A DNA stretch of 64,000 nucleotides from a virus (IMGVR_UViG_3300045988_049479:117652-181651), one strand, 5' to 3'; shown: positions 758 through 46,328, counted from the first letter of the stretch. Made by a program: numbers and translations. Notes: generated from the sequence alone by a model not told the origin.

Positions 758-2032
758 TTATAATAATAAGTACCGTTCCCAAGTTTTTGAATTACCTAAG
801 GACAAACGTTCATTTGTATTCTATTCGGTTCTAACATAAGGTGTTACTTTAAAATTTATAGGAAATTTGTATCTAAGCAAAGAATAATGTAATTTCTTAT
901 TCTTGCTTTTAAAATAATAGGGTTTGTTGTTATACATAAAGTGCACTCTGAAATGGCTATGATAATCAACCACCTCTATGATATGAATATACTTATTATA
1001 AAACTTAGATATATTGACTTCCTTTCCATTCCAATTTGAGAACTTCAAACCAGTCAAAGTTTCTATCTTTTTCAACAAATTCTTAGAATCACAGAATTTC
1101 ATCCAGCTGAAATAAGATCTCATTCTTCTTTCCAATTCTTCTTTATCAATCTTATTTTGCTTATATAGATTTATAAGCCTAAACATTCTCATTTTTATAG
1201 ATTTTCTTAATAGAACGTGAGTGTGATAAAATTTGTAACCTACAAAATCTACTCCTCTACTTTCTACTGGAAATATCTAGTAGTTAGGTTTTAATTCTAA
1301 ATTAAGAACTTGTTTCAAATACAGTTTTATAGATACTAATACATTTCTCAAATAATTCTTGTCATTACCAAGAATCACAATATCGTCAGCATATCGAAAG
1401 TAGTACTTACATTTTAACTCCTCTTTTATCCAGTGGTCAAAATATGTCAGATATAAATTTGCAAAGAACTATGATAGATAGTTTCCAATAGGAACTCCTT
1501 TGGCTGAATATATTATTTCCTTCAATAGACTTAACAGTTTCTTATCCTTTATTTTCTTCTACAACATCTCATACAGGATGTCATGTGTTATAGATGGATA
1601 AAATTTTCTTATATCCATTTTTAGGCAGTATTTAGTTTCATCTGAGTATTTCTACAATACCTTGAATAAATCATACTCTACCTTATGAATCCCTCTGTTT
1701 CTTATAGAGGAATATGTCTAATCTATAAAAATACTGGTCCAGATAGGTTCCATAATATTCATTATAGCATGATGAGTGATTCTATCAGGGTAATATGGAA
1801 GTCTAAAGATTAATCTTTCTTTAGGCTCATATATTATAAATGTACTATATTCAGAAGTCTAATAGATTAGCTATTTTAATTTGTCTGATAATTCCTTATT
1901 TTCTTCTAATCTATTCTTATCATGCTACTTAATACCACATCGAATTGATTTATTTCTTCTAGCCTTATCATCAGCTAATTCGATGTTTTTCAAATCATAC
2001 ACTCGTTCGTGCAAATATCCTACACGTTTCAA
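758..2032 (-). CDS. DGR-type reverse transcriptase, amber-recoded (about 10 in-frame TAG); start codon uncertain (TTG at 2032 or GTG at 2002)
   Basis: Manual minus-strand translation in a single frame from the TAA at 2036-2038 down to the TAA at 758-760. It contains an RLIFRLPYYPDRITHHA stretch, GVPIGNYLS[TAG]FFANLYLTYFD, FRYADDIVILG (YxDD) and a VDFVGYKF thumb motif. Tracker ORF 821..1192 is its C-terminal fragment; it stops at an in-frame TAG at 821-823 and the frame reads on. Confidence 0.8.
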
Positions 2033-2104
2033 TTTTTATATATTTCATCGGAAGCTTTCGAGATTTAACCTACTAACACCCTTCATTTAACACTACGTTG
2101 TCTT

Positions 2105-2119
2105 TTGCCTAGAGGCAAG
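2105..2119 (-). other. Small hairpin (ttgcc-tagag-ggcaa) between TR and RT
   Basis: Inverted repeat read directly from the sequence. Confidence 0.3.
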
Positions 2120-2173
2120 GATATTACTTAGCAAACTAAAAAAATAAAATAAATTGTTCTAAATATATAATAA

Positions 2174-2271
2174 CTCGACATTGGAATTGGCATTGCTGAC
2201 GTCATTGTTAGAATTGAAATAGCTGAGACCTGCATTGCTGCCATTATTCGCGTTGCTGCCTACTAGCAGTT
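2174..2271 (-). repeat. DGR template repeat (TR), non-coding, rich in AAT/AAC codons in the VR frame (ANNGSNAGLSYFNSNNDVSNANSNVE)
   Basis: Aligns base-for-base without indels to 2373-2470 (offset 199) and to plus-strand 28831-28923. Of 25 mismatches against VR1, 23 fall where TR has A on the minus strand. In the VR frame the TR contains stop codons, so it is not coding. Confidence 0.85.
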
Positions 2272-2345
2272 CTTTTTTGCCAATCAACGGTTTTTAGAAG
2301 TAATATCCTACGATTTATATCTAAATCGATTTTCTATATTTTATC

Positions 2346-3521
2346 TTAAGATACTCTATTTAGAGTCCTAAACCCGACATCGGAACCGGCAAGGCCGACG
2401 CCATAGTTAGAATAGAAACAGCCGAGACCCGCATCGCCGCCAAGCTTCGCGCAGCCGCCCACCCGCAGCGTGCGAAGCTCTGTAGAGGTAGCATTGCAAG
2501 AGTGGTAGTCACATATATAAGTTGTAGCTGAGGCTCCAGTACAAGAAGATGGTATAATCTCTGCTGTCTCTCCTAAGTCAAACTCTTTAATGTATCCATC
2601 TTGCGCTACCTCGTATCCTGCTATGGTCTTGCTGCCAATTACGTCAGTAAACTCTTCCTTGTTTGTGGTAGTATACACACTACTGATTTCATTTGCCGCA
2701 GTTCTTTGAATAACTACTCCATCTAGGTTTGTCCAAATATCTCCAAATGGATTATCAAAACCTCTCCATCTTGGAACTTTAAATGTCTTAGTCGCTACTG
2801 TATCTGTTTCGTTTGTTGCAGTACACTCTGGAATAACTAAATCTTTGATTCCAGTGAAGTTACCAATATCATTACAATAACCACATGGAGTAATAGGATA
2901 AGTTCCATTATATCCAGACCAACTTGTAGCAGAGTTACTCCAGTCTGTAACTCCAGGACCAAGTCCTCCTTGACGATAACCATCAGAAGTAAGTTCGGCA
3001 TTATAGGCAGCCTGGGAGTTAAAGTTAGCATATTCTATTACATAGTTCCAGTAGAATATCCATTTATAATATTCATAGCATAATAATTCAGAACCTGCAT
3101 TTGTAGCATAAGTTCTCATATTAGCTCTAGAAACATTAGTTCTAGGTTTTCCTAAATCGCTTCTAAAAGCATCTTTGGTATCAAGTTCAGTAGTTAGATA
3201 CTCATCGAATTGTGCTCTATTTCCACCACCTCTAAATGCTTCTGTAGTATTGACCACAGACACAGCTTTAGGGGTTGCTGACACAGTATTATCAACGGTA
3301 TTTCTATATGCGTCAATTAATAGTTCTGGTATTTCTACCCATGAATCATCAAGCTTTACTAGAGAAATTCTAACCCATCTTTTATTTCCATTAGAGCCTG
3401 ATTTACCATAAAATTTAGGAGTGTGGACTCTTACAGTTCCATCAGTTCCATCGAGCACAGAAGGAGTACTTCCATCTTCTTTGTAAGCCCAATCGTCCGG
3501 ATATAAATAGTAATTTACCAC
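2346..3521 (-). CDS. DGR target protein 1 (putative receptor-binding or tail-fibre protein with a C-terminal variable domain)
   Basis: Tracker ORF of 391 aa with a GTG start. It has no internal TAG although the flanking genes are TAG-rich. VR1 sits at its C-terminus. The frame stays open upstream through two TAGs to a TAA at 3729-3731, so the true start could be TTG at 3720-3722. Confidence 0.7.
   Translation of the reverse strand: MVNYYLYPDDWAYKEDGSTPSVLDGTDGTVRVHTPKFYGKSGSNGNKRWVRISLVKLDDSWVEIPELLIDAYRNTVDNTVSATPKAVSVVNTTEAFRGGGNRAQFDEYLTTELDTKDAFRSDLGKPRTNVSRANMRTYATNAGSELLCYEYYKWIFYWNYVIEYANFNSQAAYNAELTSDGYRQGGLGPGVTDWSNSATSWSGYNGTYPITPCGYCNDIGNFTGIKDLVIPECTATNETDTVATKTFKVPRWRGFDNPFGDIWTNLDGVVIQRTAANEISSVYTTTNKEEFTDVIGSKTIAGYEVAQDGYIKEFDLGETAEIIPSSCTGASATTYICDYHSCNATSTELRTLRVGGCAKLGGDAGLGCFYSNYGVGLAGSDVGFRTLNRVS
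2373..2470 (-). repeat. DGR variable repeat VR1 at the 3' end of the target gene; GC-rich; encodes ...RVGGCAKLGGDAGLGCFYSNYGVGLAGSDVGFR
   Basis: Differs from the TR almost only at TR adenines (A to G, T or C). The protein ends in a GFR motif typical of C-type-lectin-fold DGR targets. The TAA stop follows 27 nt downstream. Confidence 0.85.
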
Positions 3522-5192
3522 ACCGTTATTTGCTACACATCCTCTGTAAGCGGACTAAATAGGGAGGGATTTATGTAATAGTGGGTTTCCTATTCTAGTA
3601 AGGATAGGAGAAGATACGGTAATATCCCATTCTACTCCATAAGAGTATAAGTCTACGTTACTGCTTAACTCTGTGACTTGTTTGCTTAGACTCTATTGTT
3701 CTTTTTGTAATTCTTCCCAAGCAGTATTAAGAGCATTAAATTGTTCCTCTAACTTAGTACTAGTATCTGCCCACTATGCAGTCCCATCTTCAGAAAAGGT
3801 TAAAATCTATCCAAGTGCTCCTCCAGCAGGTATGTGTTTATTTCCAGAAGTAGTTGGGTGTACATAATTATTTGCATTATCTGCAATACCACTAAGTTTC
3901 TGTTTTTCAGTTTCTGTGTAATTAGCTTCAGAAAGTCCTTTTCCTAATTCTTTATCTACCTTACTTTCCAACTCCGTTTTAGTAGCTAAACCACTTATAT
4001 CCTAGTGTTCCTTTAAATAATTTTCATCATTCTATAACTAAGACACTTTAGTTGGAATGGCACTAGATTTTGCATATGTCTAATCTATAACATTTCCAGA
4101 GCCATCATAGGTAGCCTTTAAGTCATATACGGTTTCTCCAACCTTTATAGATTTGATAGCTGCCATATTATTGTATTATTAAAGTTTCTTCTTCTACATT
4201 ATGATCTATTCCTTCTATGGAGGCAGTTAAGTCTTCAACAGCTTTCTACAGTTCAGCCTTGGTAGCGTAGTTCTTTAATGTATCTGGGTCTATTCCAGAT
4301 CCTCCTATATTTCCTCCAACAACTTTTACTGGTTTTGCTGAGTTCTTAAACTACCCTTCAACCCAAATTGTTCCCATACTATTTAAAATATTAATTGTTC
4401 ATTTTCTCCATCTACCTGTACGTTACCAGAACCAGGCTATATTGCATCTATTTTCTTCTACAATTCGTCTACAGCAGCCTTTATTAATTCTTCCACCTCA
4501 GCTTTTGTATAGTAGCGTTCTGTCAGATATTCACTTCTGACATATCCTGTATCCTATATATCTTTTTCTCCATAAGTACAATAGTACGTATCGTTCTCTG
4601 TCTTATTATTTTCAACTAAGTCATCATAATCTGTTTGTGGAAGACATACCAATTTAGGAACCTCTTCTGTAAGAGCAACTTGCTTTCCAGATGCTAATAA
4701 TCTATTGTCTTCTGTAGTAAGTTTAACAGAACTTTCAATAGTCTGTTCAGTTGTTTCATCTTCTGAACTTTCTCCAGTTGTTCCCTATTGTACTTCTTTT
4801 TCGACAATTTTCTAAATAGTAATATCAGAAGTTTCTATAGAGGTTGATTTTAGAAGCTCTGTGCTAAATTCCTTAGAAGCGGCATCCTAATCTTCCTAAT
4901 ATTTCTTCTAGGTAACAAATATAAAATCGTCATCACCAGTTTCGGGAGAATCTCCTCTTAAACTTTCTTTTGTCACATACTCCTCTGCTATCTAATCGGA
5001 AAGGTCGGTTAATGACTATTGAGTGGCGTATGTAGATTGAGCATTTTCTTTTGTAAGAAACTTTTCATCTACCTACGAGCTAGTGTAGTATGCTTTAATA
5101 TCTTCTGTAGTAACGTAGCTTCCTAGTTTCTATAAACCAGAAACAATTTCATCAATCTATGTCTTTGAGTAATAATTAGTAGCAACCCAGGA

Positions 5193-6251
5193 CTAATACT
5201 GATGTGTAGTATGGTAATTTTGATCTAAGTACTCCTTAGTAATATAGACTTTAGCATCATTTGTTACATCATACACATAGTAATATGTGTCAGGTTCTAT
5301 AGCCTCATCTTCTACCAGTTTTAAATATTCCTCTTCAGTTAATGTAACCAGATTAGGAACATCTGACATCATGGCGAATTGGTCTTCTCCAACAAACAAT
5401 CCATCAGATTTAACATCTACTACTAGCTAATCCTTCCCTTCTACTACTGGAGACTTTATCTATCCTACAGTAATACTTTCTAGGGAACCATCTCCATCTA
5501 CCTTTAAAGTCTTATCTAGCTCATCTTGAATAGCCTATTGGTCTTCGTCATACTATTTCTTTGTAACAAAGACAAAATCATCTCCTTCCATTCCTTCTCC
5601 TCTAAGACTTTCTTTGGTAACAAATATGTCATCAGTTTCTTCCTTAGTATAATGGTTAGATAAGGCTTTAGATAACAAGGATTCTGGGTCCTCTAAATCT
5701 AGATCAGTTTTAGGGGCATAATTCTCAGTTAACTCTTCAAGAGTAGCATACTTGGAAAGGTTAGAGATTGTCTAGTCTAAATCCGTTCTAATCTGTACGA
5801 CAGTAGTATTTAGAGCTTTCTATTTCAACTATTCCTCTATCTTTTTACCCCATTCTGCTGATAAATAAAACTAATCATCATCTAGGCTGTCTTCATATAT
5901 ATAATAATATGTTTCTGCATGAAGATATGTTTTATTTTCGTCTATAGGTTTAAAATCTTCTGTGGTATTTTCAGACCATTCCTTATATTCAGCCTCTGTA
6001 CAGGTGATTATCTAAATAGATTCATAAGAAGCTTTCCAACCTTCTTTGTATTTAATCTTAGACTTATCTACTAGCATATAAATATTTCCGTTATCTATAT
6101 TTGAAACGGTCATGCCTTGATAAGCATATTTCTCCGGAATAGAATATAATTCGTCTAAATTATCGACTACTGTTCTATTATCAAGAGGTTTAGGAGTTTC
6201 TACGGTTAAAGCAACGCCTAATGTAGCATCACCTGTATATTTAAATGCCAT
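5193..6251 (-). CDS. Amber-recoded acidic structural protein; ATG at 6249-6251 overlaps the upstream stop as TAATG; 3' end not determined (frame continues below 5193 through TAG)
   Basis: Manual translation from 6251 down through tracker ORFs 6012..6251 and 5193..5399 stays in one frame, interrupted only by TAG (for example 6012, 5871, 5829, 5820, 5772, 5694, 5553, 5535, 5517, 5466, 5460, 5427, 5193). Confidence 0.5.
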
Positions 6252-7840
6252 TATTGTGATAAAGTAAAGTTAATTTGATGAGGCAATGCTGAAGAATAAG
6301 TATCCTTCTTAGTCCATACTTTATAAGGAAATCCATTTATCTATTCAGTAGAAGTTTCCCAGCCACTTAAATCAACATTTAGGTATCCTAGTCCTCCATC
6401 TACTGTAAATGAATTTAGCTAAGTATTACTTCCAGGTAATTTTATAATAGCCTTTCCACTTAATGAAAATGTAATAATTCCAGAAGATTGTCCAAATGGA
6501 ACAAGACTCTATTTGATTAAACTATCTGTATTACCAGAATACCAAGGGTAGGTAGCAGTCACCTATGCTGTAGTTGATATTGAACCAGCCTCCACCCTCT
6601 TGTCTGTAACCTCTCCCTTGTTGTTAATAAGATATTCTCCAGCAGCATAATTTACGGTACCAGAATGCACATAAACACCGATAGAATCATATGTTTCAGA
6701 TTCTACAGGAGAATCATTATAGGTAATAGTTTCTTCTCTACCAGTTTCCTCTCCAGCATCATTTTTTATAAATGTTAAAGTAGGGGTAAGTAAAGCGGAT
6801 CCTACCTCCACAATCTAAGAGGTGAAGCTATAATACAACTAAGGATAAACCAAATCTCTAACAACAGTAGGAAATAATAGAGTGTCTATAATCTCATTAA
6901 ACGGCTTTCCTTTCAATTTTTCAACTGTAGTTCCTTGAATAACAGTAGAAGTAGTATCATCTGGAAGTTCAGTTTGATAAGTAGCTATAGTTTCTAAACT
7001 TGTCTATATATTTGTGATATTCTCAGTATTAGAATCTACTTTAGAATCAGTGTTCTTCTAAGCTTCCTATACTCCCTTAACTTCTTCCTTTACCTCTGTT
7101 AGAGATGGTTCCAGGTCTTTTACATATATTCCAGGTAGAACTACTGTGGAAGGTTCTCCTTCCTCCTCTACTGGAGGAATTTCCTACTGAATCAGATGTA
7201 TTGCATTATCCTCCTACTAAGATAGAATTACTTCTAGAGTATTATCATCCTTTATTTCTATGGTTTTGGAGTTTCTTAGACTATTAGTTATCCAATTCTA
7301 GATGTTTTTGTCAACATCTATATTTTTGATAGACTCATTAATATCCTCTATTGCCTCATTAATCTAGGTTATTTTCTCAGAAAGATTGTTTATGCCAGTT
7401 CTGTTAGATTCAATTTCTTCTTCAAGTTCTTCCTTAAGTACAGTAATAGAAGTTCTGATATTACTTATATCAACTTTTATTTCCTCTATTTCTTCTGTAT
7501 TAGCTTCGTACTAACTTATAAAGAATAAAGCATAATCTAAGGCATCTTTTACAGTATTGATATTCTCTGCAACATCACTAGTATAAGTCCATTTCTATTC
7601 TATGTACTATACTAAATCTTTCTAGGCTTCTATAGTTCCTTCTATATTTCCCCAAAGAAGACTCTACTCATCAGCGATACCTAGATTCTTTCTAACCTTA
7701 GCTCTTTCTAATTCAGTTCTATATTCTCCAAGATAGTTGTTTCTTAGGAGAGGTATAGGTTCACTTTTTATTAAATGTCCTTTCTTTCCACAAGGCTTTA
7801 TATCAGCATTGCTTACCGAAGTATAAATAGGCTGTATCAT
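6251..7840 (-). CDS. Amber-recoded coiled-coil tail-fibre or needle-like structural protein (about 529 codons, about 20 in-frame TAG)
   Basis: Manual translation from ATG 7838-7840 to TAA 6251-6253 in one frame. The only internal stops are TAG. The frame is closed upstream by a TGA at 7847-7849. Heptad-like, E/K/I-rich sequence. Confidence 0.6.
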
Positions 7841-10800
7841 TATGATTCAATAATTGCTATTTAATAAATTCGTGATTATCTAATTTTACGGGTAGGTTAA
7901 TAAAACAAATTAGATTCAAAATATCCTAATAATCTGGTCTATATCCCTTTCTAACCCTTTTAAGGAAATCCTCATACCTTTTAATAGCCTTTCTTTTAAG
8001 AGCATCCACAACCTATACGTTTATGTTCATGGTGATTGTTACAGAATCCACCGCAAGTACGGAACATTGCTAACAATCTTTCAGCTTCCATGAATTGTTT
8101 AAAGCCTATTAAATAATCTATAATGTTAAGTGTCATCCAGATAAAATCTCTTGCAAATATATCTGCATCATGTTCTCTAGTTAGACACTTATTTAATAAA
8201 GAGTCAAAGAGTTTCTTACAGTAGTTAATATAACACTATTGCAGATTTCCTGTAAAGAATACATCTACCTTACATTTTTTGATAGTAGTTCCTTCTATAT
8301 TTCTCTCAAGGATTTCTTTTACAGTACATTCCTCTAGCTCTCCATCTACTTCTTTATATAGTTTCTCTCCATCAGTTATATAGATAGTTTCATAATACTC
8401 CTTGTATTCATCAGATGAATTTTCATACCATTTCATATTAGGAAGAATTATGTGGTCTACTACATAATATCCATCTTCTTTCACCTTAAATGTACAAGAG
8501 TCTAAATCCTCTGTATGGTCATTGAGAAGTACGTCTATCAAAGTAGCATCTCCTATACTAACTTTTATGATAGTATTTAGGGTAGCACTTTCACTATACT
8601 TATAAGAATCATAGGAAGTTACTACCTCTAAATCTTCATCAATATACTATCCATATTCCTTTGAAAAGTCTTCAATAGTTATTTCCCCGTTAATCTGGGT
8701 ATGTATATCAATACTAAATTCCATATTATAATAATTAAGACTCAGTAGTAGGCCATTGACCATATTGAGCAGGAGTAGAAAATGGTTTCCACTTACCTTC
8801 TTGTCGTATACGTCTAGACATAAAAACTGAACTAAATGATAAACTAATATCTTGAGGATAGTCTGTCCATGTATATGACTAACCTTCAGGAGTCGGTGGT
8901 AGACTATTTAATTTACCAGCTGGTTTCCCATTCCAATAATAATTATAGTCATATGCCTTAGTTGGAGTAACAGTCGTTGTTTCATGTCCTTCTGAATCTA
9001 CATATAGAGGATTTCCATCCTCATCTGTTTTCTGCTTATACTCAATAACTGGAGTTATTCCCTCAGTTCTAGTGTATATATTCTAGATAATAGTAGAAAC
9101 ATCGCTTGCCACAATCTCATAAATAGTAGTTCCCTGAGATTCGTCAGCTCCCTAGAAAGTAAATTTAGTTCTTTTCCAGATGTATGGATTCTCTTCAGTT
9201 GGAAGTTCAAAAGTATCAGTCCACTATTTAGTAGATAATTTTATCTCAGATTCTTCAGCAGTATCAGCAGGTAAGTAATGAATCTTAATAATAATATTAT
9301 TTACCGCTTCACTAGAACCAGAAAGATCTGACACCTATTTAAATAGTTTCTTTAAATCTTCTTCCACATTTGATTTGGAACCAGAAGCATTACTAATAAT
9401 TACTGAACCATCTGAAATAGGATAAATCTATTGCTAATCCTTATTATATACAATTGTTCCAGTTGCCATATTAATGTATTTGTCTTATTTTGTCATTATA
9501 TGGATTTCCATCATGAAGCTAAGCTAACTCTATTTCAGTTCTCTTTTCTTCTATATCCATTTGTCTATCTTTATATGTAGAATCAGATTGAGCTTTGAGC
9601 CAGTTAACTTTATATTCTAACTACATTTTCTGCTACTCTAATCCTAATCTCTATTCATCCAAACTTTCTATCTTCTACTAAGCTTTCTATAGTTCTTGCT
9701 GTAACTGCTGTGCCTATTGTGAAGTTTCTTCCAGTTTTTCCTATAGCTGCTATAGCTAATTGTTTTCTTCTTTACGAATCTATACTGCTTTCTTAACCTT
9801 ATATTTAAGGTCTGTAAGACTCTTAGCAGTTAGTGCTTCAAATATGATGTCAGGATCCATTTGCTGACTTTTAACAAACTCTGGAATAATGGCTTTAATA
9901 GTTTGTAAATCTTCCATTACTTCAGAGCTAGAAGTTATATGGATGTCATAATCAGTAACCGTAAAATATTCTGGAAGTGCTGTAAATATCTGCTAGTATT
10001 TATCTCCAAGTATAATAGTACCAGTCAATCCTTTCTTATATGTTATTTTAGCCTAGTTTAGACTATCCAATAATATCTCACAAGTGATTAGGTCCATCTA
10101 CTAGAAATAATGCTTGGTTACTATGTAAGAGTTAGTAACACCTTGCTTAATATTAGTTACAGCATCGTGAGTTTCTATTCCATTTAATCTTTCTCTAAAT
10201 ACTCCAGTTATAGATGATGTAGTTTGTTCTACTGATTGAATTGCTAATTCAATAGCCTATACAGCCTAAGCTTTTAAGGTATCATCAAATCCATTGTATA
10301 TCTAGTTAGGTGCTTGCGCTCCGTCATTTCTCTCTTCCTAAGTAGAATCAATCCACATGATACCACCCTTCTTGTATGCTAACCATTTCTACACTCTTTC
10401 TGGCCATTTTACGCCTAGGTTAGTAGGAAGCAATGACATATCCATGATTACTCCAGCAGTACCGCTGTTAGCTATCAGGTTATCCCTATAATAATTTAAC
10501 AAGTCATATCTATCCTGTAGATGTGCACACTTTAATATCAGAGAGTACGGTTGTTGAGAACGATTTAAGAAATATACCCCATTCACAGACAAAGAGCAGA
10601 AATTAGGATTATCTTTTGACCTCATAACAGTCTTGTCTAGACCTCTCAGAATATATATTTCTTCTCCAATTCTAATGGTATTGTATCTCTACATTACAAA
10701 ATCGTCATCAGTTTCTATCCACTCTACATCATAAACAGGAATTAACTAAAATCTATGAGCACTATATTCATTATCTGGATATCCAGGAATAGTTTCATGA

Positions 10801-11839
10801 TTCTAGTCTTCGTTTACTATAGTACAAGTGTCACCATAAACTCTTCTATAAACTGCAGCTGAATCATCGGCTCTCCATTCATCTTTTAGTCTTTTCAGAT
10901 CTTCTCTAGAGATTTCTTTTCCGTATTTAGCTAATATCTAGCTTTTACTCATCCATTTTCTAACTACTACTCTATACGAATTTCTAACATATGGAGATTC
11001 TGGATTCCTATCTACGAAAGTATTTAAAGGATTCAGAACTTCTATTTCTATGTTAGTTCCAGAAGATGATGATTTTACTCTGAAAAATGTATAGCCAGTA
11101 ATTAATAAATCTGTAAGTAACTATCGGAGTTTAGTTATTAAATCGGTTTCTCTAGACTGCATAATATAATGAATAATATTCTATGCAGCTATCTCATATT
11201 GAGAAATAAAAGACTAATCAATGTCTTGAATAATTTTATCTAACTAAGTCTTCACGGCTTTATCTGTAATATCTTTTCCGTCGATAAATTTCAGAATAGA
11301 ATTACTTAAATGGTCTCTAAGAAATTTAACTATTCCTTTAGTTATTTCTAACTATTTTTCTCTGGTGATATTACTAATGGTATCTGAATCCTTACAAGAA
11401 ATCTTCGGAAGGATAGGGGTTCCTAGATATTCCCCTACTAGAGCATCTACGTGCTTTTTTAGTAATGGTGTAAATTCTACAGAAGTAGGACTACCTATTC
11501 CAAAGTTTTCTTCCAGGTAACGAAACTATTCTGGGTCTCTCTTTCCGTTATAGTAATTATAGGCTTTCTATAATTCGTACTTATCATATACAAGCTCCGC
11601 AATAGCCTCGTTCGTCTTGTCTATCAGTTCTTTTTCTTTCATAACATAAATTATGCTGTTCTGGAGGAAGTTTAGTTGCATTATAGTATTTAACTCTTTG
11701 TAACTTCCTACTTCTTAATTCTTCCTTTATAAATGGGAGAAATTCTTCATCAGGTAAATCAGCTATAATGACTAAAGGCATCTCTGACCTATCAAAGTTA
11801 AACGATACCTTATAACCAACTGGATCTAGGTTCTGAATT

Positions 11840-14200
11840 TCAAGCCCACCTACGTATTCCATTTTGTACAAGTCTCTCATATAACCTAGGATCACTTGTT
11901 TCAATTCTGTATGGGTCATCGTATTCATTTTTTTGTATGTTAGTTTCAAAAGTCTTAGAAGTTGGTATAACCCCAAATCTTTTGATTCCTCTCTCGTCGT
12001 AATAATAACCATAATCTTGGAATTGTTCAACTTCTTTTTCAACAAGCACTGGCTATCTTCCTGACAATTCCTAGTCTGCCAATTCTGTCATTCCCACAGC
12101 TGCTACAATATCGAATTTACCTTTATTCTCATCATTATATCCAGTAAATTGGTCTAACATTTCTTCAAACCATATAGTATGACAGAAATCCTCAATAAAG
12201 GCTGCTGTCAAATCAGTATGTTGTTCTATAATAGTTTTGGTAGCGGGTGTTCCGTACTATTTAGTAGTTCCATTCTTGACGTCTGTTAGAGTAGCTCTAG
12301 GTCTTTTCATAAAGTAGTTTAAACAACCCTTTTCTCTAGCCCAGGTAATCATACCTACACGGGTAGCTTCTATGTTTATTCTACAATTATAGTATCTAGC
12401 TAAACACATAGCTATTTTATAGGCTTCTCTAATGTCATTAGGTCTGTCTTTATACATAGCAACATACTACGGTTCGTTTAGACCAAATGCTCTTCTTTTT
12501 ATAGTTATACAGAAATCAGAAGGATCTCTTGTTTCTTTTGAAGTTTGACTAGCTCCTATATCAATACCGTCTATTCCTGCAACATATAAATCATGCATTT
12601 CTTTGTACGCTGGAGATTCAAATTCTTCTCCCCTTTCCTCGGCTTCCTATCTAAGTTTATCCATCTACTCTTTATACAAATCAGACCATACAGGATGTTC
12701 AAGTATTTTTACTTTTCCGTTAATATTAGGAATCCATTTAAAACCATCTATATTATCCTAGGTGTGTTTATTATTTTTATAGAAATAGTCTATGTATCCA
12801 GATTCTGGTCTTGGTCCTATTTTCTTAAGTCTTATATTAGCTAACTGGTCCGCAATAAGAATCTTGTTGAACTTGTTAACACCTTCAAGATTAAATGCTT
12901 CTTCTGCATTCCAACATCGTTCAGCACACTTCTTTAGATAGTCATCTGGAACTGCTAATAAATTGTCGCGCTCTTCCTATAGATACTTCTTATATTCTAC
13001 TGTATTACATACACCTCTATGGTCCATGTATTCTGAATTTAGAGACTAGACAAAATATGGAATGAAGAACCCACTTTCAATAGTAGTCCCATCCTGGGTA
13101 TAATTATGTCTAAATGGAAGAACTTTGTAAGCTTTTGGATTATAATATATCTTCTTAAGACCTGCTAATGGAGCGCCCATATCACCACCAGTACCTCCAA
13201 ATAACATTGTTCCACGAGGTTTACCTTGAACTTCACAAAGCTCTTGTCCCTACACTACAGCAGTATCTAGTCCAGGCCAAGATCCTGCTTCATCATATAT
13301 TAATAAGTCAACACGGTCTCCACGAATATTAGATGCCTTAGCTCCGTTTATTCCAACTACTTCCGATTTAAATCCAACATCCTCAAACTGTCCGTTTACC
13401 TTAATCTGTTTACCGGACTTCTTTCTTAAGTCTTGGTCAATCAAACGTAGTTTGAAGAATCCTCCTCCTGTACAAGTATTCAAGAATGTTAAAGCATTAT
13501 CAAACTTACTAAAAGTACCTTTAAGGAAGGTATCATTAAAACAGGTAATCATTACTCTGCTTCTTCTGATTACTGAATACATTCTTGCAGATAAGGATGC
13601 ATTTATTTCAGAGAATCCAATAGAACGAGCTTTCATAAGAGCTGCGTGTTTATGCAGAACTCTAGCCATCTATAGATAATGAAAGAACATATAATGAGAT
13701 GCGAAAAATATAGGAAAGTCACTACTTGTTCCTTCTCCAGATGCCTTGTTATCATCAATAATAGGAAGCTAGTAGAAGTTTAGGAAGAAATAGTTATCTC
13801 CAGTAATTGTATAACCATTAACAGTCATTCCATATTTACATCTTCTATACTATTCCTTCCAAAACTCATTATATCTCTTACTATCTTTTAGATATGGACA
13901 ATACTTTCCAGTTTTTCTATATACTTCTCTGGTCTCAGTAAACCAATCTGGGTCGAAATCAAGACCATGTGTTTCATCTATTGGTCTATATCCAGTTATT
14001 TCATAAGATAAAGTAGGGTCAAATACCTCTATCTTATCTCCTCTTTTTACATCCCAATAATCAGCATTTTTGCCTCTTTCCTCTCTTATCTTCTATACTA
14101 GTTCTCTAGCTTCTTTGGCATCCTCTTTTTGTTCTTTCTCTCTTACCTAATCTACTATATTCTAGATTTCTTCAGGTAATATTTTTTTCTTTCTAGGCAT
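11840..14200 (-). CDS. terL: Terminase large subunit-like protein, amber-recoded (about 16 in-frame TAG)
   Basis: Tracker ORFs 13250..13669, 12257..12457 and 11840..12049 are all in the same frame (start mod 3 = 1). I checked 12050-13250 triplet by triplet and found only TAG, no TAA or TGA. An ATG at 14198-14200 begins MPRKKK... A Walker-B-like VDLLIYDEAGSWPG and a C-terminal nuclease-like segment are present. The gene ends on TGA at 11840. Confidence 0.5.
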
Positions 14201-15582
14201 AATTAAAAGTCTCCTGGGTCAAAGCCGTCTGTAGCTCCACCTCTTACAGTAGATTGTTCTGTAAGCTCTTTCTTAACCTGCTCTTCTAGTGTTACTAATT
14301 CTTCATGAACTTTATGAAGAGTAGCCATTTCTTTCATTACCTTTTCAGCTTGAAAGACGGGTTTGCCATTATTATCACGTTCATTTAAATCTACTATAGT
14401 ATCAAAATAATCAATAAACTAGTCAGCTGCTCTTTTAGCTGCTTCTAGAAGTTTTATTGATTTGTTAGAATCCTACAATGCTCGGTATTTTCTACAGGCT
14501 TCCCTGAATAACGGGTCATTAAATTCGGATTCAGATAGTCCAGAGTCACTAATAGCTTCATCATGTCTTTCATGTTCTGAATATTGGCTATAGGGACTCT
14601 TCCAATCAATAGCTAGATAAATGTAAGATAATTCTCTAGTTACTCGTTCCTTGTCAACAGATTTATCTCTCTGTATCAAAGCCTTAAACTCTTTAACTAG
14701 AAGAAGCTCTGGTTCATTTATTTCTAACTATTTAGTTAAAGTGTTATAATTAAATACATTCATACTCATCAATCATTAACATTAACATCTTTAATCTTTT
14801 TATTTCATTTTAGAACCGCATTTACTTACTTTCATTTTAGAACCACAAGCATCTTTCTTAGCATACTTTGTTCTATCTGGAACCCATTTTCCATTTTTAA
14901 AGTTTCCCTTGTGTCCTCTATTTGCCATGACCTCCTAGTCATTATATTTATTAATAGATACAGAATCTCTGGATGCTTCATCCTTTGCAGATTTCATATC
15001 CTTTTTATACTAAGCTCTTCCAGCCTTGAACTTGTCAACTTCATTAGCTTTCTTAGTAACCTTAGTTCCTTTCTATGCTTTTTGGCAAGCTTTGCAGATT
15101 CTTCCTCCCTGTTTAAAATAAACAAGTTCCTCTCCTTCTGGGCATACTCCTTTTAATTTTTTATAGTATTCTAGTTTAGCTCCAAGTCTAGCCATAACTC
15201 CGCCTTGCATCTTCTACATAAATTCTTGATACTTGGCTTTGATTCCATCTTCTCCAAGCTACTCAGCGTAAGCCTATAAATCTTGCTCTGATTGTAGTTG
15301 TATCCCTTGTGCTTGGGCATCTTGTATCAAGTATGCCATGAATGCTTTCTGTAATTCTTCCTAATTAGCCATTACTCTTCTACTTTAATTAAATCCTTTG
15401 TATTAAATACTGCTTCCTGCATTAATCCAGAATCAGTAAACCATCTACATCTTAGTCCTCGTAATCCTTGGTTATCTTTAAATAAAGCTGCTTCTCTTCT
15501 TAGAACAAGCATAACTGGAGAGTGCATTACTTTACACTACCGTAAAGTAACACAATCCCCAGGCTTAAAATAAACTTTTTCA

Positions 15583-16185
15583 TCAATTGTTTCCATGCTT
15601 CAATTCGTCTCTTCTTTCAGTTAGTTTCTCATTAACTACAGCCATGATTCTATTCTCATTAACTACTACAAATCCTAGTTTATAGAATGGAACCATACAT
15701 TCACTAGCTATTGTATAAAATACAATATCTCCAGGCTTCAAGAACTCACACTTATGTCCTACTTCTATCACAGTTCCTACCTTAATAAATTGTTGCTCTT
15801 CTTCAATTTCTCCAGTCTCATTAGATTTATAAGTAGGAGTAAATCCACCTAAATCAGTAATAAGACCGCTTTTAGTAGTTTTTATTTTTTGGAATGGGTT
15901 TTGTTCAAAGGGTTTAATTAATGCATACCCATACATCGGCATAATTTCAACTCCATTCATATCGTTAGATAATGATTTAGCGTAATCCTCTAGTGCCTGA
16001 TTATGTTTAGAGAATTTATCTTCTAACTCATCTACTGCGGTATTAAACTTCTCTTGTTTTTCTCTTAATAATGTTTGGTCTGCAGCCTCTCCATTTAAAA
16101 TAAAATGTTCTCCCGTACCTTCCATTCCAGTTAATGATAGTGCTAGTTTTTCGTTACTGTTTAATTCTGTTCTTAAAGTTTCCAT
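15583..16185 (-). CDS. Protein with C-terminal GroES/cpn10-like domain (standard code, no TAG)
   Basis: Tracker ORF of 200 aa. The C-terminal half reads ...ALIKPFE...KTTKSGLI...VGTVIEVG...KPGDIVFY...AVV, which resembles the cpn10 fold pattern. Confidence 0.4.
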   Translation of the reverse strand: METLRTELNSNEKLALSLTGMEGTGEHFILNGEAADQTLLREKQEKFNTAVDELEDKFSKHNQALEDYAKSLSNDMNGVEIMPMYGYALIKPFEQNPFQKIKTTKSGLITDLGGFTPTYKSNETGEIEEEQQFIKVGTVIEVGHKCEFLKPGDIVFYTIASECMVPFYKLGFVVVNENRIMAVVNEKLTERRDELKHGNN

Positions 16186-16193
16186 AATTCATT

Positions 16194-16577
16194 TTACCAT
16201 TTACATAAATCACAATGTTCATCTTCAATTCTTGTTTTATTCTCTAATATACAACCACATTCATCGCACACTTCCCCAACAGATGTTTGTAATTTATGGG
16301 AACAAGCGTCACAAATTTTTAATCTTTTGGTTGTCAAATCTTGATTTATTCCGAATATATTGAAATATATACTTTTCAATATTGTTAAAGGTTTAATAAA
16401 TATTGCTTTAATCCATTTCCATATCATATCTTCTTCCTCCTTCTCGTTTATATTTTGGACAGTAAGTATATAATGCTTATCTGGTTTATATAATATAGGA
16501 GTTCCATAGATTACCATTTCCCTGCTGGGCAATGTTTCTTTTCGTTTGGAATCTTCTTCTCTAGTAAACATCCACAT
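16194..16577 (-). CDS. Cys-rich zinc-ribbon protein (paralog A)
   Basis: Tracker ORF. C-terminus reads ICDACSHKLQTSVGEVCDECGCILENKTRIEDEHCDLCKW. Confidence 0.4.
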   Translation of the reverse strand: MWMFTREEDSKRKETLPSREMVIYGTPILYKPDKHYILTVQNINEKEEEDMIWKWIKAIFIKPLTILKSIYFNIFGINQDLTTKRLKICDACSHKLQTSVGEVCDECGCILENKTRIEDEHCDLCKW

Positions 16578-16726
16578 CCCTTTATATACCCTTCTTTAGG
16601 GCTTATACTTATATCATTATTCTTTGGATTTAGATACAAATGCCCATTACATAATCCATTATCTTGGTCACATATTGGACAGCGTCTACATATCTCAAAT
16701 CTTTCTTCTATTTCCTCTAGTGTCAT
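16511..16726 (-). CDS. Cys-rich zinc-ribbon protein (paralog B); overlaps paralog A by 67 nt in another frame
   Basis: Tracker ORF. C-terminus ICRRCPICDQDNGLCNGH...GCGCLLEKKIPNEKKHCPAGKW is homologous to the paralog A C-terminus. Confidence 0.4.
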   Translation of the reverse strand: MTLEEIEERFEICRRCPICDQDNGLCNGHLYLNPKNNDISISPKEGYIKGCGCLLEKKIPNEKKHCPAGKW

Positions 16727-16728
16727 AA

Positions 16729-17643
16729 TTAATATTCAATACGTTGACGTTTTCTTTTATTTTCTGCCAATATAGATTCCTTCTTATAGAAGGCTAGCAT
16801 TTTTATAACCTCATCTTTTAGATATGGCAAATGATATACTGTCATATTGTCATTATGGTCGAAATGTACCAAAACCAAATCCTCTATTTCAAACTCTGGA
16901 TTTTTCTTTTGAATCATCCAAGCATAAGTACTTAATTGTAAAGTATAGTGCCAGTAATTAACATCATCTAAATTATTTAGAGGATATTTCATCTTAACAG
17001 AAGTTTTGGTTTTAGAATTGAAGAAACTCTTAGTTTCTATTTTCTTATTGGTCTTCCAGTCTCCTATAATTATCTTATTTCCTCTTTTAACTAATAAGTC
17101 AATCTGTCCTGCTATTCTTAGCTTTCCATCATCCGATACTCTAGATATTAAATACTCAGGATATACACCATTCTCTAAGTCTAATTCATTGTGGTCTTTT
17201 ATACACTCGAACTTGCCACCTATTTGATATTTACTAAGGTCTATGTTCTGTTTCTTTTTATAGAAAGAGTTTTCCAAATCTGCATGGATTTTAGTTCCCC
17301 TCTCGCATGAGTTTCTATTCTCTAAATCCCAAGCATCTAAGATAGCTTGTTGCTCTTTATTAAACTCGTCTTCTGTAATGTTATGAAGTTCAAGTAGAAC
17401 TTTATCAAATTTCTTAGTGTTCAACAAAGACTTTTTTTCTATAGCCCAATCTTCTTTAGGTAAGAGTTTCTCTAGTGCTTTATATGCTGACCAGAACTCC
17501 TTATCAAATGGTTGGGTGAAAGAATGAATTAAAGTCGTTACAGATATAAACTTCTGTTCTGGCTTTGTAACATCATAATAAATATGAGCTTCTTCCTCAA
17601 AAGCTATGTTCCCATTTTGTTTTGTAATTTTACTTTTGTCCAT
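16729..17643 (-). CDS. PD-(D/E)XK family nuclease-like protein (standard code)
   Basis: Tracker ORF of 304 aa. The stretch GQIDLLVKRGNKIIIGDWKT fits a D...(D/E)xK nuclease core. Confidence 0.45.
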   Translation of the reverse strand: MDKSKITKQNGNIAFEEEAHIYYDVTKPEQKFISVTTLIHSFTQPFDKEFWSAYKALEKLLPKEDWAIEKKSLLNTKKFDKVLLELHNITEDEFNKEQQAILDAWDLENRNSCERGTKIHADLENSFYKKKQNIDLSKYQIGGKFECIKDHNELDLENGVYPEYLISRVSDDGKLRIAGQIDLLVKRGNKIIIGDWKTNKKIETKSFFNSKTKTSVKMKYPLNNLDDVNYWHYTLQLSTYAWMIQKKNPEFEIEDLVLVHFDHNDNMTVYHLPYLKDEVIKMLAFYKKESILAENKRKRQRIEY

Positions 17644-19549: not shown

Positions 19550-19566
19550 AACTATTAATTTTGGCG

Positions 19567-19638
19567 TTGCCCTACTAGGATTCGAACCCAGACTAAATGA
19601 TTTAGAGTCATCTGTGCTGACCATTACACCATAGGGCA
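19567..19638 (-). tRNA. Amber suppressor tRNA-Gln(CUA)
   Basis: Minus-strand sequence tgcccta-tg-gtgtaatggtcagcac-a-gatga-CTCTAAA-tcatt-tagt-ctgggttcgaatcctag-tagggca-a. The 7 bp acceptor is perfect, the D and T arms are canonical, and the anticodon stem carries one G.U pair. Loop CTCTAAA gives anticodon CTA. The D-arm, variable loop and T-arm nearly match tRNA-Gln(TTG) at 34204-34275. Confidence 0.85.
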
Positions 19639-20941: not shown

Positions 20942-21957
20942 AAGATTGGGGAGAAATCCCCTTTCTTTTACATACAAATAATCTTTGTAGAAATGGACAT
21001 AAGAAAAAAGTTTAAGACTATAAAGTGTTTGTATAATTGGGGCATAATCTATGACCCAAAGACTAATGAAAAGTTAAATTTCAAATCCAAACGTGTTTAT
21101 TGCGTAACTTCTTGGGCTTGGATTATGACCTATCAAAAGTCAGAAGAAGATATTCCTGAGATAATTAGGATAGTCTTTGTAGATTAACTCTAAGGTACTA
21201 TGAGTTTTAAATAAAGTGCCCACATGAACCCCATCATCGGAACGTTGGTTAACGGGGAAAACAACATCACAACAAATCAAATCAAAGTTTTTGTTTAGTT
21301 TTAGGATTGTATCTGGCAGCTTGGAAAGACAAGCAAAATCTTTATACCTATCTGCTAATAGGTTTAGTGTTCAACGCGAAAATTCGGTAAAGGAAGGAGA
21401 GAAATTGTCCACTAAAAAGACCCTCAATTTCCGGACTTTTTCCGATTTTCAAAAAATCCGCCAGAGTAGGAGTTATATAGCTCACACTCTCTATGGACAT
21501 TATTTAGTATTTAGCCTATAAAAAGGCAACAAAAAGCGAGGCTACGCAGAAGAGCCTAACACCAAAAATAACTGCTACAAATTCTATGTGCATATTCGCA
21601 AACTTGAGCACTATAGGATTTAGGTTGAGCTGTAAGGATTGGTCACTTATAGCAATATTATGAGTACTGCTGATATGTCAGTGACCGTACATATCACATA
21701 TAAAATATGTTATACAATTATGTTAGAAGTTGCCAGGTCTAAGAAGCCTGATTAAAATCTCTAGATAGTAAGAGAGAACCTCATAAGGGTTCATTTTCCA
21801 TCTCGAACCTATTCGCAAGTTTATAGACTAGCTATCTATAAATTTAGTGATGGAATACCAACGAAGTTGGTGTTCCCGCTTTGCGAACGTTGATAACGTC
21901 CTCAGCATGGAAAACTGAGAAATAATCTCCTATCTTATTCTAGATATAGATAGGATT

Positions 21958-22026
21958 TCCCTACTAGTATAATGGATTGCGTCTCCTTTAAAGGAGAAGA
22001 TTCTGGTTCAAGTCCAGAGTAGGGAA
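21958..22026 (+). tRNA. tRNA-like gene (69 nt) with non-canonical anticodon arm (tctcc-TTTAAA-ggaga, 6-nt loop; anticodon would be UUA or UAA)
   Basis: Acceptor tccctac/gtaggga pairs perfectly. T-arm is tctgg-ttcaagt-ccaga. It lies inside a 1 kb ORF-free region. Confidence 0.35.
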
Positions 22027-22628
22027 CTACTAAGTTGCAGTATTCATATTATTGTCGGACCATAATGGGTATGCCCTGAGACTATGCAGTCGTTGTGAAA
22101 CAACTCAAAGTATTGTGGCACAGGAAGGTCTGGTCGTTACTCTTTGCTTATTTTATTAATTTCCATTTTGACTAAAAGGCACAGCGGTGCCTTTACTCTC
22201 AAGATAAGAACAACCTTTACGTGGTTTGAGAGATAAGTAAGCTGCTTTAGCTGAAACTAATAGTTCTAGTAACAATTAAAAATATTTACCATGAAAGAGA
22301 AAATGAAACGTATTGAGGAGTACACTAAAGCAATGAGAGAGCTACTAGATAGACTCTTGGAGCAAAACCCAGATTCAGAGAATGAAATCTATGATGAAAT
22401 ATGGGGAGCTTATGTTGCAGGCATGAAGGTGTTCTTATAACTCCTATTCTAGCTGAGAATTAAAACTAGCTGGCTTTTATCACTCTTTGTAAAAGCTCAA
22501 AAATTAAAAAGAGAAATCTAGAACGGTAAGCCCGGCTCTCTTCATCCTTTAACTGATTTAGAAGTAAAACAGAAATTAGTTGGCAGCCTGGAATAGACAG
22601 GTATTTTTAACTAAAAATTATAGAAAAA

Positions 22629-23093: not shown

Positions 23094-23289
23094 GCTGAAT
23101 AAAAAACTCAATAACTTCCCAAGACATTGAGGGCACCAGTTTCTTATTGAAAAGCAAAACTATATCGTAAATTCGATTGATTAGTTCAAAGATGAACGAA
23201 AAGGATTTAAAGCCTTTGTCAATTGATGCCGTATAATGCTATAAATATAAGTTTTAGGTGTAAAATGCGATTAATAAAAGAAAAAGATT

Positions 23290-46253: not shown

Positions 46254-46256
46254 GAT

Positions 46257-46328
46257 AGCGCCATCATCTAATGGTTAGGATTCAGGCTTTTCACGCCTGC
46301 CATACGGGTTCGAATCCCGTTGGCGTTA
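46257..46328 (+). tRNA. tRNA-Glu(TTC)
   Basis: Anticodon arm caggc-TTTTCAC-gcctg; T-arm acggg-ttcgaat-cccgt. Confidence 0.75.

What the first reader, a model, noticed from the sequence alone, without database searches (positions are those of the whole stretch)
6251..7840. Example recoded gene: 529-codon coiled-coil fibre-like protein with about 20 amber codons and a TAATG overlap with the next gene
Manual translation gives one uninterrupted frame from ATG (7838-7840) to TAA (6251-6253) if TAG is read as Gln. Many TAGs fall in heptad-like contexts such as IEA[Q]KDLV[Q]YIE[Q]KW, EA[Q]KNTD and ITNI[Q]TSLE. Ordinary CAA/CAG codons are also used, so TAG is an extra Gln codon, not a replacement. 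The terminal TAA overlaps the ATG of the downstream gene.
Basis: seen in the sequence. Interest (0 to 1): 0.55.

Follow-up and report, generated by a model that had tools for sequence, protein, structure and literature searches.

The report
Amber-recoded phage fibre gene (known kind)
This is a real 529-residue fibre-like virion gene of a large crAss-like gut phage in which 19 TAG "stop" codons are read as glutamine with the help of a phage-encoded suppressor tRNA, a phenomenon that is already well described for this phage group, so the finding is correct but ordinary.

Summary
Window 6251-7840 (minus strand) runs ATG to TAA over 529 sense codons, with 19 in-frame TAG, no TGA and no internal TAA. 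The stop overlaps the next gene's ATG (TAATG). The frame is not chance: 0 of 20,000 shuffles lack TAA/TGA, and dN/dS against homologs is 0.07-0.20.

TAG most likely encodes Gln. In 32 distinct homologous genes, Gln is the most enriched residue opposite TAG (6.1x), and the invariant Q444 is TAG, CAA or CAG in all 14 homologs tabulated. A tRNA with anticodon CUA (19566-19638) is most similar to the phage's own tRNA-Gln.

Recoding covers the whole late block (758-15372: TerL, portal, fibres, DGR tail protein, RT). The 22 clean-frame plus-strand genes sampled use no TAG for Gln, and four plus-strand genes apparently stop at TAG.

The protein has a conserved N-terminus, an Ile-rich heptad shaft and two Ig-like beta-sandwiches at the C-terminus. 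Its fold matches crAss-like tail and tail-fibre proteins. No public source read names it.

Genome features match amber-recoded, DGR-bearing "Zeta" crAss-like phages described in 2021-2025 papers, and proteomics has already shown TAG=Gln in a crAss-like tail fibre. Verdict: already known, low interest.

The parts
6251..7840 (-). Amber-recoded gene for a 529-aa fibre-like virion protein. ATG at 7840-7838, TAA at 6253-6251, 19 in-frame TAG.
   Evidence: translation and codon counts. (shuffle test). (dN/dS 0.07-0.20). (297 homologs at E<=0.001; the 120 best listed are mostly full length).
7496..7840 (-). Residues 1-115: conserved N-terminal region, including the invariant R50-x-NLGI-x-D motif. AF2 confidence in the monomer is low. 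Inferred to be the virion or adaptor attachment region.
   Evidence: Column conservation 0.64-0.83. Invariant columns. pLDDT mostly below 55 for residues 1-100. A weak phrog_788 'tail protein' hit over residues 35-189 in 19 of 37 members.
6971..7495 (-). Residues 116-290: variable shaft. Two heptad-repeat helices (116-187 and 244-285) flank a small beta insertion (194-240).
   Evidence: AF2 secondary structure. Heptad scores. Ile-dominated a/d core with one register skip. Lowest conservation and most indels.
6254..6970 (-). Residues 291-529: conserved C-terminal all-beta region, likely two tandem Ig-like beta-sandwiches. This is the distal (binding) end.
6249..6253 (-). TAATG stop/start overlap between the target and the next fibre-like gene. 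Inferred translational coupling.
   Evidence: Sequence context. The downstream protein starts MAFKYTG. The homolog of the downstream gene follows within 0-9 nt of the target match in all ten loci where it was found.
4383..6251 (-). Downstream co-oriented gene: 622 aa, 23 in-frame TAG, internally repetitive and acidic. No family assignment.
   Evidence: Conserved synteny.
758..15372 (-). Amber-recoded late block to which the target belongs. Gene order: g14800, g14203, TerL (11840-14200), portal (9471-11681), g8735, g7996, target, g4383, DGR-targeted tail protein (2346-4166), RT (758-2035).
   Evidence: In-frame TAG counts of 2-32 per gene. PHROG hits to TerL, portal, tail protein and RT. In total 123 TAG versus 100 CAA/CAG. 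Synteny in related loci.
19566..19638 (-). Phage-encoded suppressor tRNA with anticodon CUA (reads UAG). It is on the same strand as the recoded block and upstream of it.
   Evidence: ARAGORN. Rfam tRNA, 66.3 bits. It is 78% identical to the window's tRNA-Gln(UUG), with a near-identical D-arm (one substitution) and U1-A72; the next best tRNA is 69%.
34204..34276 (+). Phage tRNA-Gln(UUG), the closest relative of the suppressor tRNA within the window. Used here as comparison evidence.

Best explanation
The window is part of a ~180-190 kb crAss-like gut phage of the 'Zeta' type that uses two genetic codes. Its early and middle genes (plus strand, beyond 20 kb) are written in the standard code. 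Its late block (minus strand, 758-15372) uses TAG as a glutamine codon.

The gene at 6251-7840 is one late gene of that block. Shown: it is a conserved, purifying-selected ORF whose 19 TAGs correspond to Gln in homologs, and the phage carries a Gln-like tRNA(CUA). Inferred: early in infection host RF1 terminates at codon 59, so no fibre is made. Once the phage suppressor tRNA has accumulated and been charged by host GlnRS, ribosomes read through all 19 TAGs and make the full 529-aa protein. The TAATG overlap then passes ribosomes to the next fibre gene. With 19 sites, 90% read-through per site would give only about 13% full-length product. TAG decoding must therefore become nearly complete late in infection.

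The product is most likely a trimeric fibre subunit. It has a conserved N-terminus that docks on the virion or on another fibre protein, an Ile-core coiled-coil shaft of variable length, and two Ig-like beta-sandwich domains at the distal end that bind a surface ligand or the next fibre component. The neighbouring DGR-diversified tail protein is the more likely primary host-range determinant.
For: - **Frame and selection.**
- **TAG=Gln.** Across 32 distinct homologous genes, 67 columns contain TAG. In these, Gln is enriched 6.1x over background, against 2.2x for E and K. Gln is the commonest majority residue (16 columns). CAA is the top codon opposite the window's TAGs (99, plus 11 CAG). The invariant Q444 is TAG or CAA/CAG in all 14 homologs tabulated. 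TAG count and CAA+CAG count tend to trade off between homologs, from 19/7 to 1/43.
- **Suppressor tRNA.**
- **Dual code.** The late block has 123 TAG versus 100 CAA/CAG. The 22 TAG-free plus-strand genes used as the early set have 139 CAA/CAG Gln codons. In four plus-strand genes the only TAG lies 2-8 codons before the next TAA/TGA, so TAG is probably their true stop.
- **Late-module context and synteny.**
- **Fibre architecture.**. Ile at both a and d positions favours trimers; this rests on established coiled-coil knowledge, not a test here.
- **Fold.** Similar to crAss-like tail and tail-fibre proteins and to Ig-like adhesion domains.
- **Rate of change.** The target diverges faster (41-50% identity) than TerL or portal (50-78%) in the same loci.
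- **Literature.** Late-gene TAG-to-Gln recoding with suppressor tRNAs in Zeta crAss-like phages (PMC7886860; PMC12386605). A timing model (bioRxiv 10.1101/2021.08.26.457843). Peptide proof of TAG=Gln in a crAss-like tail fibre (PMC9523058).
Against: - There is no direct expression or peptide evidence for this gene.
- The timing model is inferred from gene layout. The promoter/terminator scan around the tRNA was uninformative.
- No release factor, RF1 antagonist or GlnRS was found among the ten large plus-strand proteins scanned, so how RF1 competition is overcome at 19 sites is unexplained.
- Tail versus head fibre is not resolved. In crAss001 the gene right after portal is a head fibre, and Ig-like domains also decorate capsids.
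- Trimer state was not modelled.
- The C-terminal region is conserved rather than hypervariable. This argues against it being the main specificity determinant.
- Membership of the Zeta group rests on matching features, not on a phylogeny.
Confidence: 0.85

Rival explanations
1. The protein is a head (capsid) fibre or decoration protein rather than a tail fibre. The recoding mechanism would be the same, but the location on the virion would differ.
For: In crAss001 the gene immediately after portal (gp21) is a trimeric head fibre. The C-terminal Ig-like domains are typical of capsid decoration proteins too. One weak BFVD hit is a capsid-decorating protein (E 0.02). The conserved C-terminus fits a generic adhesin.
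Against: The strongest fold matches are annotated tail protein or tail fibre in crAss-like phages (E 9e-16 to 4e-7). phrog_788 'tail protein' is hit by 19 of 37 family members. The gene sits in a run with another fibre-like gene and the DGR-targeted tail protein.
Confidence: 0.2
2. TAG is decoded as an amino acid other than glutamine, for example Glu, Lys, Tyr, Trp, Leu or Ser.
For: E and K are also enriched (2.2x) in TAG columns and are the majority residue in 14 and 9 of those columns. ARAGORN labels the tRNA 'Pyl' by anticodon only.
Against: Gln enrichment is about three times higher than that of any other residue. Q is invariant at position 444, where TAG alternates only with CAA/CAG in the homologs tabulated. 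The suppressor tRNA is closest to tRNA-Gln and keeps U35. E and K are single-base neighbours of TAG (GAG, AAG) and common Gln substitutes. Proteomics in related phages found Gln.
Confidence: 0.03
3. The region is not a functional gene. It could be a decayed pseudogene or a chance open frame, or the TAGs could be true stops giving only short peptides.
For: Under the standard code the frame breaks into fragments of 83 aa or less. The 120 best homologs listed and the 70 cluster members read carry no source name.
Against: The probability of no TAA/TGA in the frame is about 1e-15. dN/dS is 0.07-0.20 over the alignable non-TAG codons of the whole length. Hundreds of homologs exist, mostly full length, in strictly conserved synteny. 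The C-terminal domain, downstream of 13 TAGs, folds confidently.
Confidence: 0.01
4. The host itself uses code 15, so no phage-controlled code switch is involved.
For: None from this window beyond the use of TAG as sense.
Against: The 22 clean-frame plus-strand genes sampled from the same genome contain no TAG, and four plus-strand genes seem to terminate at TAG. The phage brings its own tRNA(CUA). Published host predictions for matching Zeta phages are standard-code genera, mostly Bacteroidales, and recoded phages are reported to infect standard-code hosts.
Confidence: 0.03

Closest known systems
[quoted passage not shown] 2022, PMC9523058; Yutin et al. 2021, PMC7886860; Borges et al., bioRxiv 10.1101/2021.08.26.457843)
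   Same: In-frame TAG read as Gln. Recoding is confined to the structural/late module. A phage-encoded tRNA(CUA) is present. Standard-code gene calling shatters a fibre gene into fragments.
   Different: This is a different protein family (no sequence match tested or found). No peptide evidence exists for this particular gene.
Zeta crAss-like phages with amber suppression and DGRs (proposed Echekviridae; ctHMy13, ctoVY1, cthgQ11, 3717_85572 in Table 1 of PMC12386605)
   Same: Relatives' contigs are 178-193 kb, compared with 176-189 kb in the paper. The window has 28 tRNAs, compared with 23-27. A CTA suppressor, amber recoding, a DGR with a tail-fibre target and amber codons inside the RT gene are all shared.
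   Different: Those genomes were not available for direct comparison. A megablast of 4000-16000 against the GenBank phage collection found nothing. Identity with any named isolate is therefore unproven.
Tail protein of uncultured phage cr11_1 (UniProt A0A7M1RZ01) and related crAss-like tail or tail-fibre predictions (cr125_1, cr271_1, crAssphage ctbg_1)
   Same: Foldseek E 9e-16 to 4e-7 over about 260-530 alignment columns. The phage order and the type of virion module are shared.
   Different: Sequence identity is only 14-19%. Their 'tail' labels are computational annotations. TM-scores are low (0.22-0.35), so only part of the fold is shared.
crAss001 fibres gp21 (head fibre trimer) and gp22 (trimeric tail fibre) encoded just after portal (PMC10172136)
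   Same: The position just downstream of the portal gene. Inferred trimeric fibre architecture with a short N-terminal docking segment.
   Different: No detectable sequence or fold match to solved crAss001 chains. gp21 is much smaller (its C-terminal domain ends at residue 97). Two other genes lie between portal and the target here.

Membership tests
Code-15 (TAG to Gln) recoded phage late gene | Multiple in-frame TAG in a conserved ORF that ends only at TAA or TGA | tested here: met
   There are 19 TAG, 0 TGA and a terminal TAA. Chance P is about 1e-15. dN/dS is 0.07-0.20.
Code-15 (TAG to Gln) recoded phage late gene | TAG positions correspond to Gln codons in homologs | tested here: met
   Gln is enriched 6.1x in 67 TAG columns of 32 genes. 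Q444 is TAG or CAA/CAG in all 14 homologs tabulated.
Code-15 (TAG to Gln) recoded phage late gene | Phage-encoded suppressor tRNA with anticodon CUA of Gln type | tested here: met
   tRNA(CUA) at 19566-19638. It is 78% identical to the window's tRNA-Gln(UUG). Charging with Gln was not tested.
Code-15 (TAG to Gln) recoded phage late gene | Recoding restricted to the structural/late module, with early genes in the standard code | tested here: met
   In the late block TAG makes up 38-75% of Gln codons per gene. The 22 TAG-free plus-strand genes sampled have 139 CAA/CAG. Four plus-strand genes probably end in TAG.
Code-15 (TAG to Gln) recoded phage late gene | Peptides showing Gln at TAG positions | not testable with these tools
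   This has been shown only for other crAss-like phages (PMC9523058).
Zeta crAss-like phages (proposed Echekviridae) | TerL branches with Crassvirales as a deep group | tested here: inconclusive
   The best annotated TerL matches listed are crAss-like phages at 26-29% identity. Two unannotated faecal contigs reach 42-45%. No phylogeny was built.
Zeta crAss-like phages (proposed Echekviridae) | Genome of 145-192 kb with a large tRNA block | tested here: met
   Close relatives (96% identity in the target) lie on 187-193 kb viral contigs. The window holds 28 tRNA genes.
Zeta crAss-like phages (proposed Echekviridae) | crAss-type signature genes (MCP, IHF, giant RNAP with DxDxD) | not tested
   These were not searched for. 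The window does not include the rest of the structural block.
Phage tail fibre protein | Encoded in the tail/fibre part of the structural module | tested here: met
   The gene lies between portal and a DGR-targeted tail protein (phrog_5302, E 2e-83), in conserved synteny.
Phage tail fibre protein | Fibrous, oligomeric (usually trimeric) shaft with a distal binding domain | tested here: inconclusive
   Heptad helices with an Ile-rich core and C-terminal Ig-like sandwiches were found. The oligomer was not modelled.
Phage tail fibre protein | Homology to characterised tail fibres | tested here: inconclusive
   Foldseek matches are to computationally annotated crAss-like tail proteins. There is no Pfam, PHROG or PDB sequence match beyond coiled-coil noise, and no solved homolog.
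Phage tail fibre protein | Located on the tail of the virion | not testable with these tools
   This needs cryo-EM, immuno-EM or virion proteomics.

The most novel reading that the evidence does not exclude
This family (no name on any member read; its two largest 90% clusters hold 805 and 1,061 sequences) could be a so-far undescribed fibre component specific to Zeta crAss-like phages. Its very high amber load (19 sites, 73% of its Gln codons) may act as a steep translational gate. Full-length yield scales as the 19th power of read-through efficiency, so the gate could work only if the phage also neutralises host RF1 by a mechanism not yet identified.
Probability: 0.15. Interest if true: 0.45.

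Novelty: already known. Interest (0 to 1): 0.15.

Why it matters
The case confirms that standard-code gene calling would destroy this whole late module. The largest fragment of this gene would be 83 aa. It also gives a clean, well-controlled example of TAG=Gln with the matching suppressor tRNA in the same window.

It adds no new principle. Dual-code Zeta crAss-like phages, their CTA suppressors, their amber-containing DGR reverse transcriptases and a proteomically verified amber-recoded tail fibre are all published.

The modest added value is a domain-level description of an abundant, unnamed fibre-protein family. A second point is quantitative: 19 consecutive read-throughs require near-complete reassignment late in infection.

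Tried and rejected
**Searches that gave no useful homology**
- Megablast of 4000-16000 against GenBank phages found no match.
- Pfam, PHROG and PDB sequence searches of the protein and of its family profile gave only coiled-coil-type noise: Baculo_PEP_C, haemagglutinin HA2, tape-measure and similar.
- Pfam on the neighbouring genes found nothing.

**Mechanism leads that led nowhere**
- The promoter/terminator scan around the suppressor tRNA and the strand switch was no better than shuffles.
- The base after TAG does not differ from the base after CAA/CAG (p=0.28).
- The target is not significantly more TAG-rich than its neighbours (Fisher p=0.06).
- Ten large plus-strand proteins were scanned for release factors or aminoacyl-tRNA synthetases. 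None was found; the hits were SPFH, NAPRTase, AAA and OmpA.
- tRNA scans of nine related loci found none, because those loci do not reach the tRNA region.

**Other**
- The phAss-1 group of amber-recoded gut phages was considered and rejected as a different, tape-measure-bearing lineage.
- The first structure job was lost on the server and had to be rerun.
- The Q-substituted window sequence was not accepted by the structure tool, so the 99%-identical P0001 was modelled instead.

Full report
**1. Observation**

Translating window 6251-7840 on the minus strand gives ATG, 528 further sense positions and a terminal TAA. A codon count shows 19 in-frame TAG, no TGA, no internal TAA, five CAA and two CAG. 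The frame opens only two codons upstream of the ATG.

The stop context is CAATAATGGCA. The TAA therefore shares its last A with the ATG of the next minus-strand gene (4383-6251; product begins MAFKYTG).

The frame is not chance. None of 20,000 shuffles lacks TAA/TGA (mean 33, minimum 14). The analytic probability is 1.8e-15. The other five frames carry 20-47 TAA+TGA. Under the standard code the gene would break into fragments of at most 83 aa.

**2. Context**

The window is phage DNA with a strand switch near 20 kb (GC skew).

- Allowing TAG as sense raises coverage by ORFs of at least 100 aa from 56% to 81%.
- The minus-strand genes from 15372 down to 758 contain 2-32 in-frame TAG each.
- With TAG read as Q they include TerL (phrog_6681, 1e-61), portal (phrog_6547, 3e-47), a tail protein (phrog_5302, 2e-83) and a reverse transcriptase (phrog_1423, 4.5e-89).
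- The minus-strand genes at 15583-17643 have no TAG. Neither do the 22 plus-strand genes with a clean frame that were used as the early set. A few shorter plus-strand ORFs from the greedy call do carry 2-5 internal TAG and were not examined.
- In four plus-strand genes the only TAG lies 2-8 codons before the next TAA/TGA, so TAG is probably their real stop.
- Late-block Gln codons are TAG 123, CAA 71, CAG 29. The early set has TAG 0, CAA 77, CAG 62.
- ARAGORN finds 28 tRNAs. One has anticodon CUA at 19566-19638 on the minus strand, upstream of the recoded block (Rfam tRNA, 66.3 bits).

**3. Which amino acid**

The database holds 297 homologs at E<=0.001, and the 120 best listed are mostly full length. 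Their published translations already assume Q, so I fetched homolog DNA (40 loci) and compared codons directly.

- Across 32 distinct genes, TAG counts range from 1 to 21 and tend to fall as CAA+CAG rise. The window gene has 19/7 and L032 has 1/43.
- In the 67 alignment columns with at least one TAG, Gln is enriched 6.1-fold over background. E and K are enriched 2.2-fold; both are single-base neighbours of TAG through GAG and AAG, and common Gln substitutes.
- Gln is the commonest majority residue in these columns. CAA is the commonest codon opposite the window's TAGs (99, plus 11 CAG).
- The invariant Q444 is TAG, CAA or CAG in every one of the 14 homologs tabulated.
- The suppressor tRNA is 78% identical to the phage's own tRNA-Gln(UUG). 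It has a near-identical D-arm (one substitution), U1-A72 and a retained U35. The next best tRNA is 69% identical.
- dN/dS against six homologs is 0.07-0.20 over the alignable non-TAG codons of the whole length, so the frame is translated through the TAGs.

**4. The protein**

No Pfam, PHROG or PDB sequence match rises above coiled-coil noise. The exception is a weak phrog_788 'tail protein' hit, found in 19 of 37 family members. None of the 120 best homologs listed, nor any of the 70 cluster members read, carries a name. The two biggest 90% clusters have 805 and 1,061 sequences, on contigs of 180-193 kb.

Conservation is high in residues 1-110 and 300-529. It is low, with indels, in residues 120-290.

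An AF2 model of the 99%-identical P0001 was built from 37 homologs. It has mean pLDDT 73 and shows:

- an N-terminus of low confidence;
- long helices at 116-172, 176-187 and 244-285, around a small beta insertion;
- a confident (pLDDT above 90) all-beta region at 330-529.

The helices carry a heptad pattern with an Ile-dominated a/d core and one register skip. From established coiled-coil knowledge this favours trimers, but the oligomer was not modelled.

Synteny is conserved in the eleven related loci inspected, with the distal genes missing where the retrieved locus ends or diverges: g14800, g14203, TerL, portal, (g8735), g7996, target, g4383, DGR tail protein, RT. The target diverges faster (41-50% identity) than TerL or portal (50-78%) in the same loci. 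In crAss001 the genes just after portal are a head fibre (gp21) and a trimeric tail fibre (gp22). Tail versus head placement therefore remains open, with tail favoured.

**5. Mechanism**

Shown:
- a conserved ORF with TAG corresponding to Gln;
- a Gln-like tRNA(CUA) in the same genome;
- recoding limited to the late block;
- a TAATG overlap with the next gene.

Inferred:
- Host RF1 stops translation at codon 59 until the suppressor tRNA accumulates, which delays fibre synthesis. This is the published timing model.
- With 19 sites, read-through must be almost complete, because 0.9^19 is about 0.13.
- How RF1 is out-competed is unknown. No release factor or aminoacyl-tRNA synthetase was seen in ten large plus-strand proteins.
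- There is no special +4 context at the TAGs.

**6. Comparison with what is known**

Yutin et al. 2021 described Zeta crAss-like phages of 145-192 kb. These have many tRNAs, including suppressors, and TAG-to-Gln or TGA-to-Trp recoding mostly in late genes. Borges et al. proposed the late-gene and lysis timing model. Peters et al. 2022 showed peptides with Gln at TAG in an amber-recoded crAss-like tail fibre protein.

Babkin et al. 2025 catalogued 43 Zeta genomes. Rows 13-16 of their Table 1 (176-189 kb, 23-27 tRNAs, CTA suppressor, amber suppression, DGR present) match this window. They also note amber codons inside DGR RT genes.

I could not align the window to those genomes, because they are not in the collections searched. 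TerL's best annotated relatives listed are crAss-like phages at 26-29% identity. Lineage membership is therefore probable but not proven.

**7. Verdict**

The thing itself is an instance of an already described phenomenon, in an already described phage group, and close copies are abundant in public data. Novelty: already known. Interest: low.

The only open points are the unnamed fibre family's exact place on the virion, and how 19 consecutive amber codons are read efficiently against RF1.

Noticed in passing
window 758-4166 (TR 2172-2269; VR 2371-2468; RT 758-2035; tail protein 2346-4166; all minus strand): A complete diversity-generating retroelement. A 98-nt template repeat lies between the RT and the tail-protein gene, and a variable repeat lies at the 3' end of the tail-protein gene. 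Of 24 core mismatches, 22 are at template adenines (15 A>G, 5 A>T, 2 A>C). The RT gene itself holds 6-9 in-frame TAG. This matches what PMC12386605 reports for Zeta crAss-like phages.
   Followed up: partly
window 21725-21931 (+): A full-length RAGATH-14 RNA (Rfam RF03145, 156.6 bits against a gathering score of 149.1). It has an insertion of about 36 nt relative to the consensus. It lies in the intergenic region at the strand switch, 27 nt upstream of an odd tRNA-like gene.
   Followed up: no
window 21958-22027 (+): A tRNA-like gene (Rfam tRNA, 49.6 bits) whose anticodon stem closes a 6-nt loop, UUUAAA. ARAGORN could not assign an anticodon. It could be read as UAA (Leu) or as UUA (which would pair with the ochre codon UAA). 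This is unresolved.
   Followed up: partly
window 22629-23102, 43731-44321, 45579-46271, 46710-47162 (+): In each of these plus-strand genes the only TAG lies 2-8 codons before the next TAA/TGA. TAG is probably their real stop, backed up by a nearby second stop. Late in infection these would be read through by a few residues.
   Followed up: no
window 21958-51772 (+): An array of 27 tRNA genes interspersed with small ORFs. It includes three tRNA-Met, three tRNA-Tyr (one with anticodon ATA), two tRNA-Cys and a tRNA-Gln(UUG).
   Followed up: no
window 4383-6251 (-): The downstream fibre-like gene (622 aa, 23 TAG) is internally repetitive. It has a direct repeat with 651-nt spacing and recurring motifs of the DDF(V/I)FVT..KY.EDQ and TYYY.Y type. 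It has no family match.
   Followed up: no
window 7996-8763 (-): The conserved 255-aa upstream neighbour ends in a Cys/His-rich tail (…CGGFCNNHHEHKRIGCGCS). It has no family match. It is more conserved across loci (63-99% identity) than the target.
   Followed up: no
late block 758-15372 versus plus-strand genes: With TAG counted as Gln, late proteins are 5.0% Gln, against 2.6% in the early set. Many TAG columns align with E or K in homologs. This suggests that TAG codons also arise by GAG/AAG-to-TAG changes at tolerant surface positions, not only by replacing CAA/CAG.
   Followed up: partly
L029 2701-5224, L030 3578-6714, L033 3298-5978: In some related loci the TerL match spans much more DNA than the 2.36-kb gene, or the continuous frame is short (204-208 aa). 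This suggests inteins or introns in TerL, as reported for Zeta phages.
   Followed up: no
window 31031-32989, 55427-56443, 58321-59871 (+): The standard-code region encodes an SPFH/Band-7 protein with a Gln-rich tail (46 Gln codons), an OmpA-like outer-membrane protein and a nicotinamide/nicotinate phosphoribosyltransferase.
   Followed up: no
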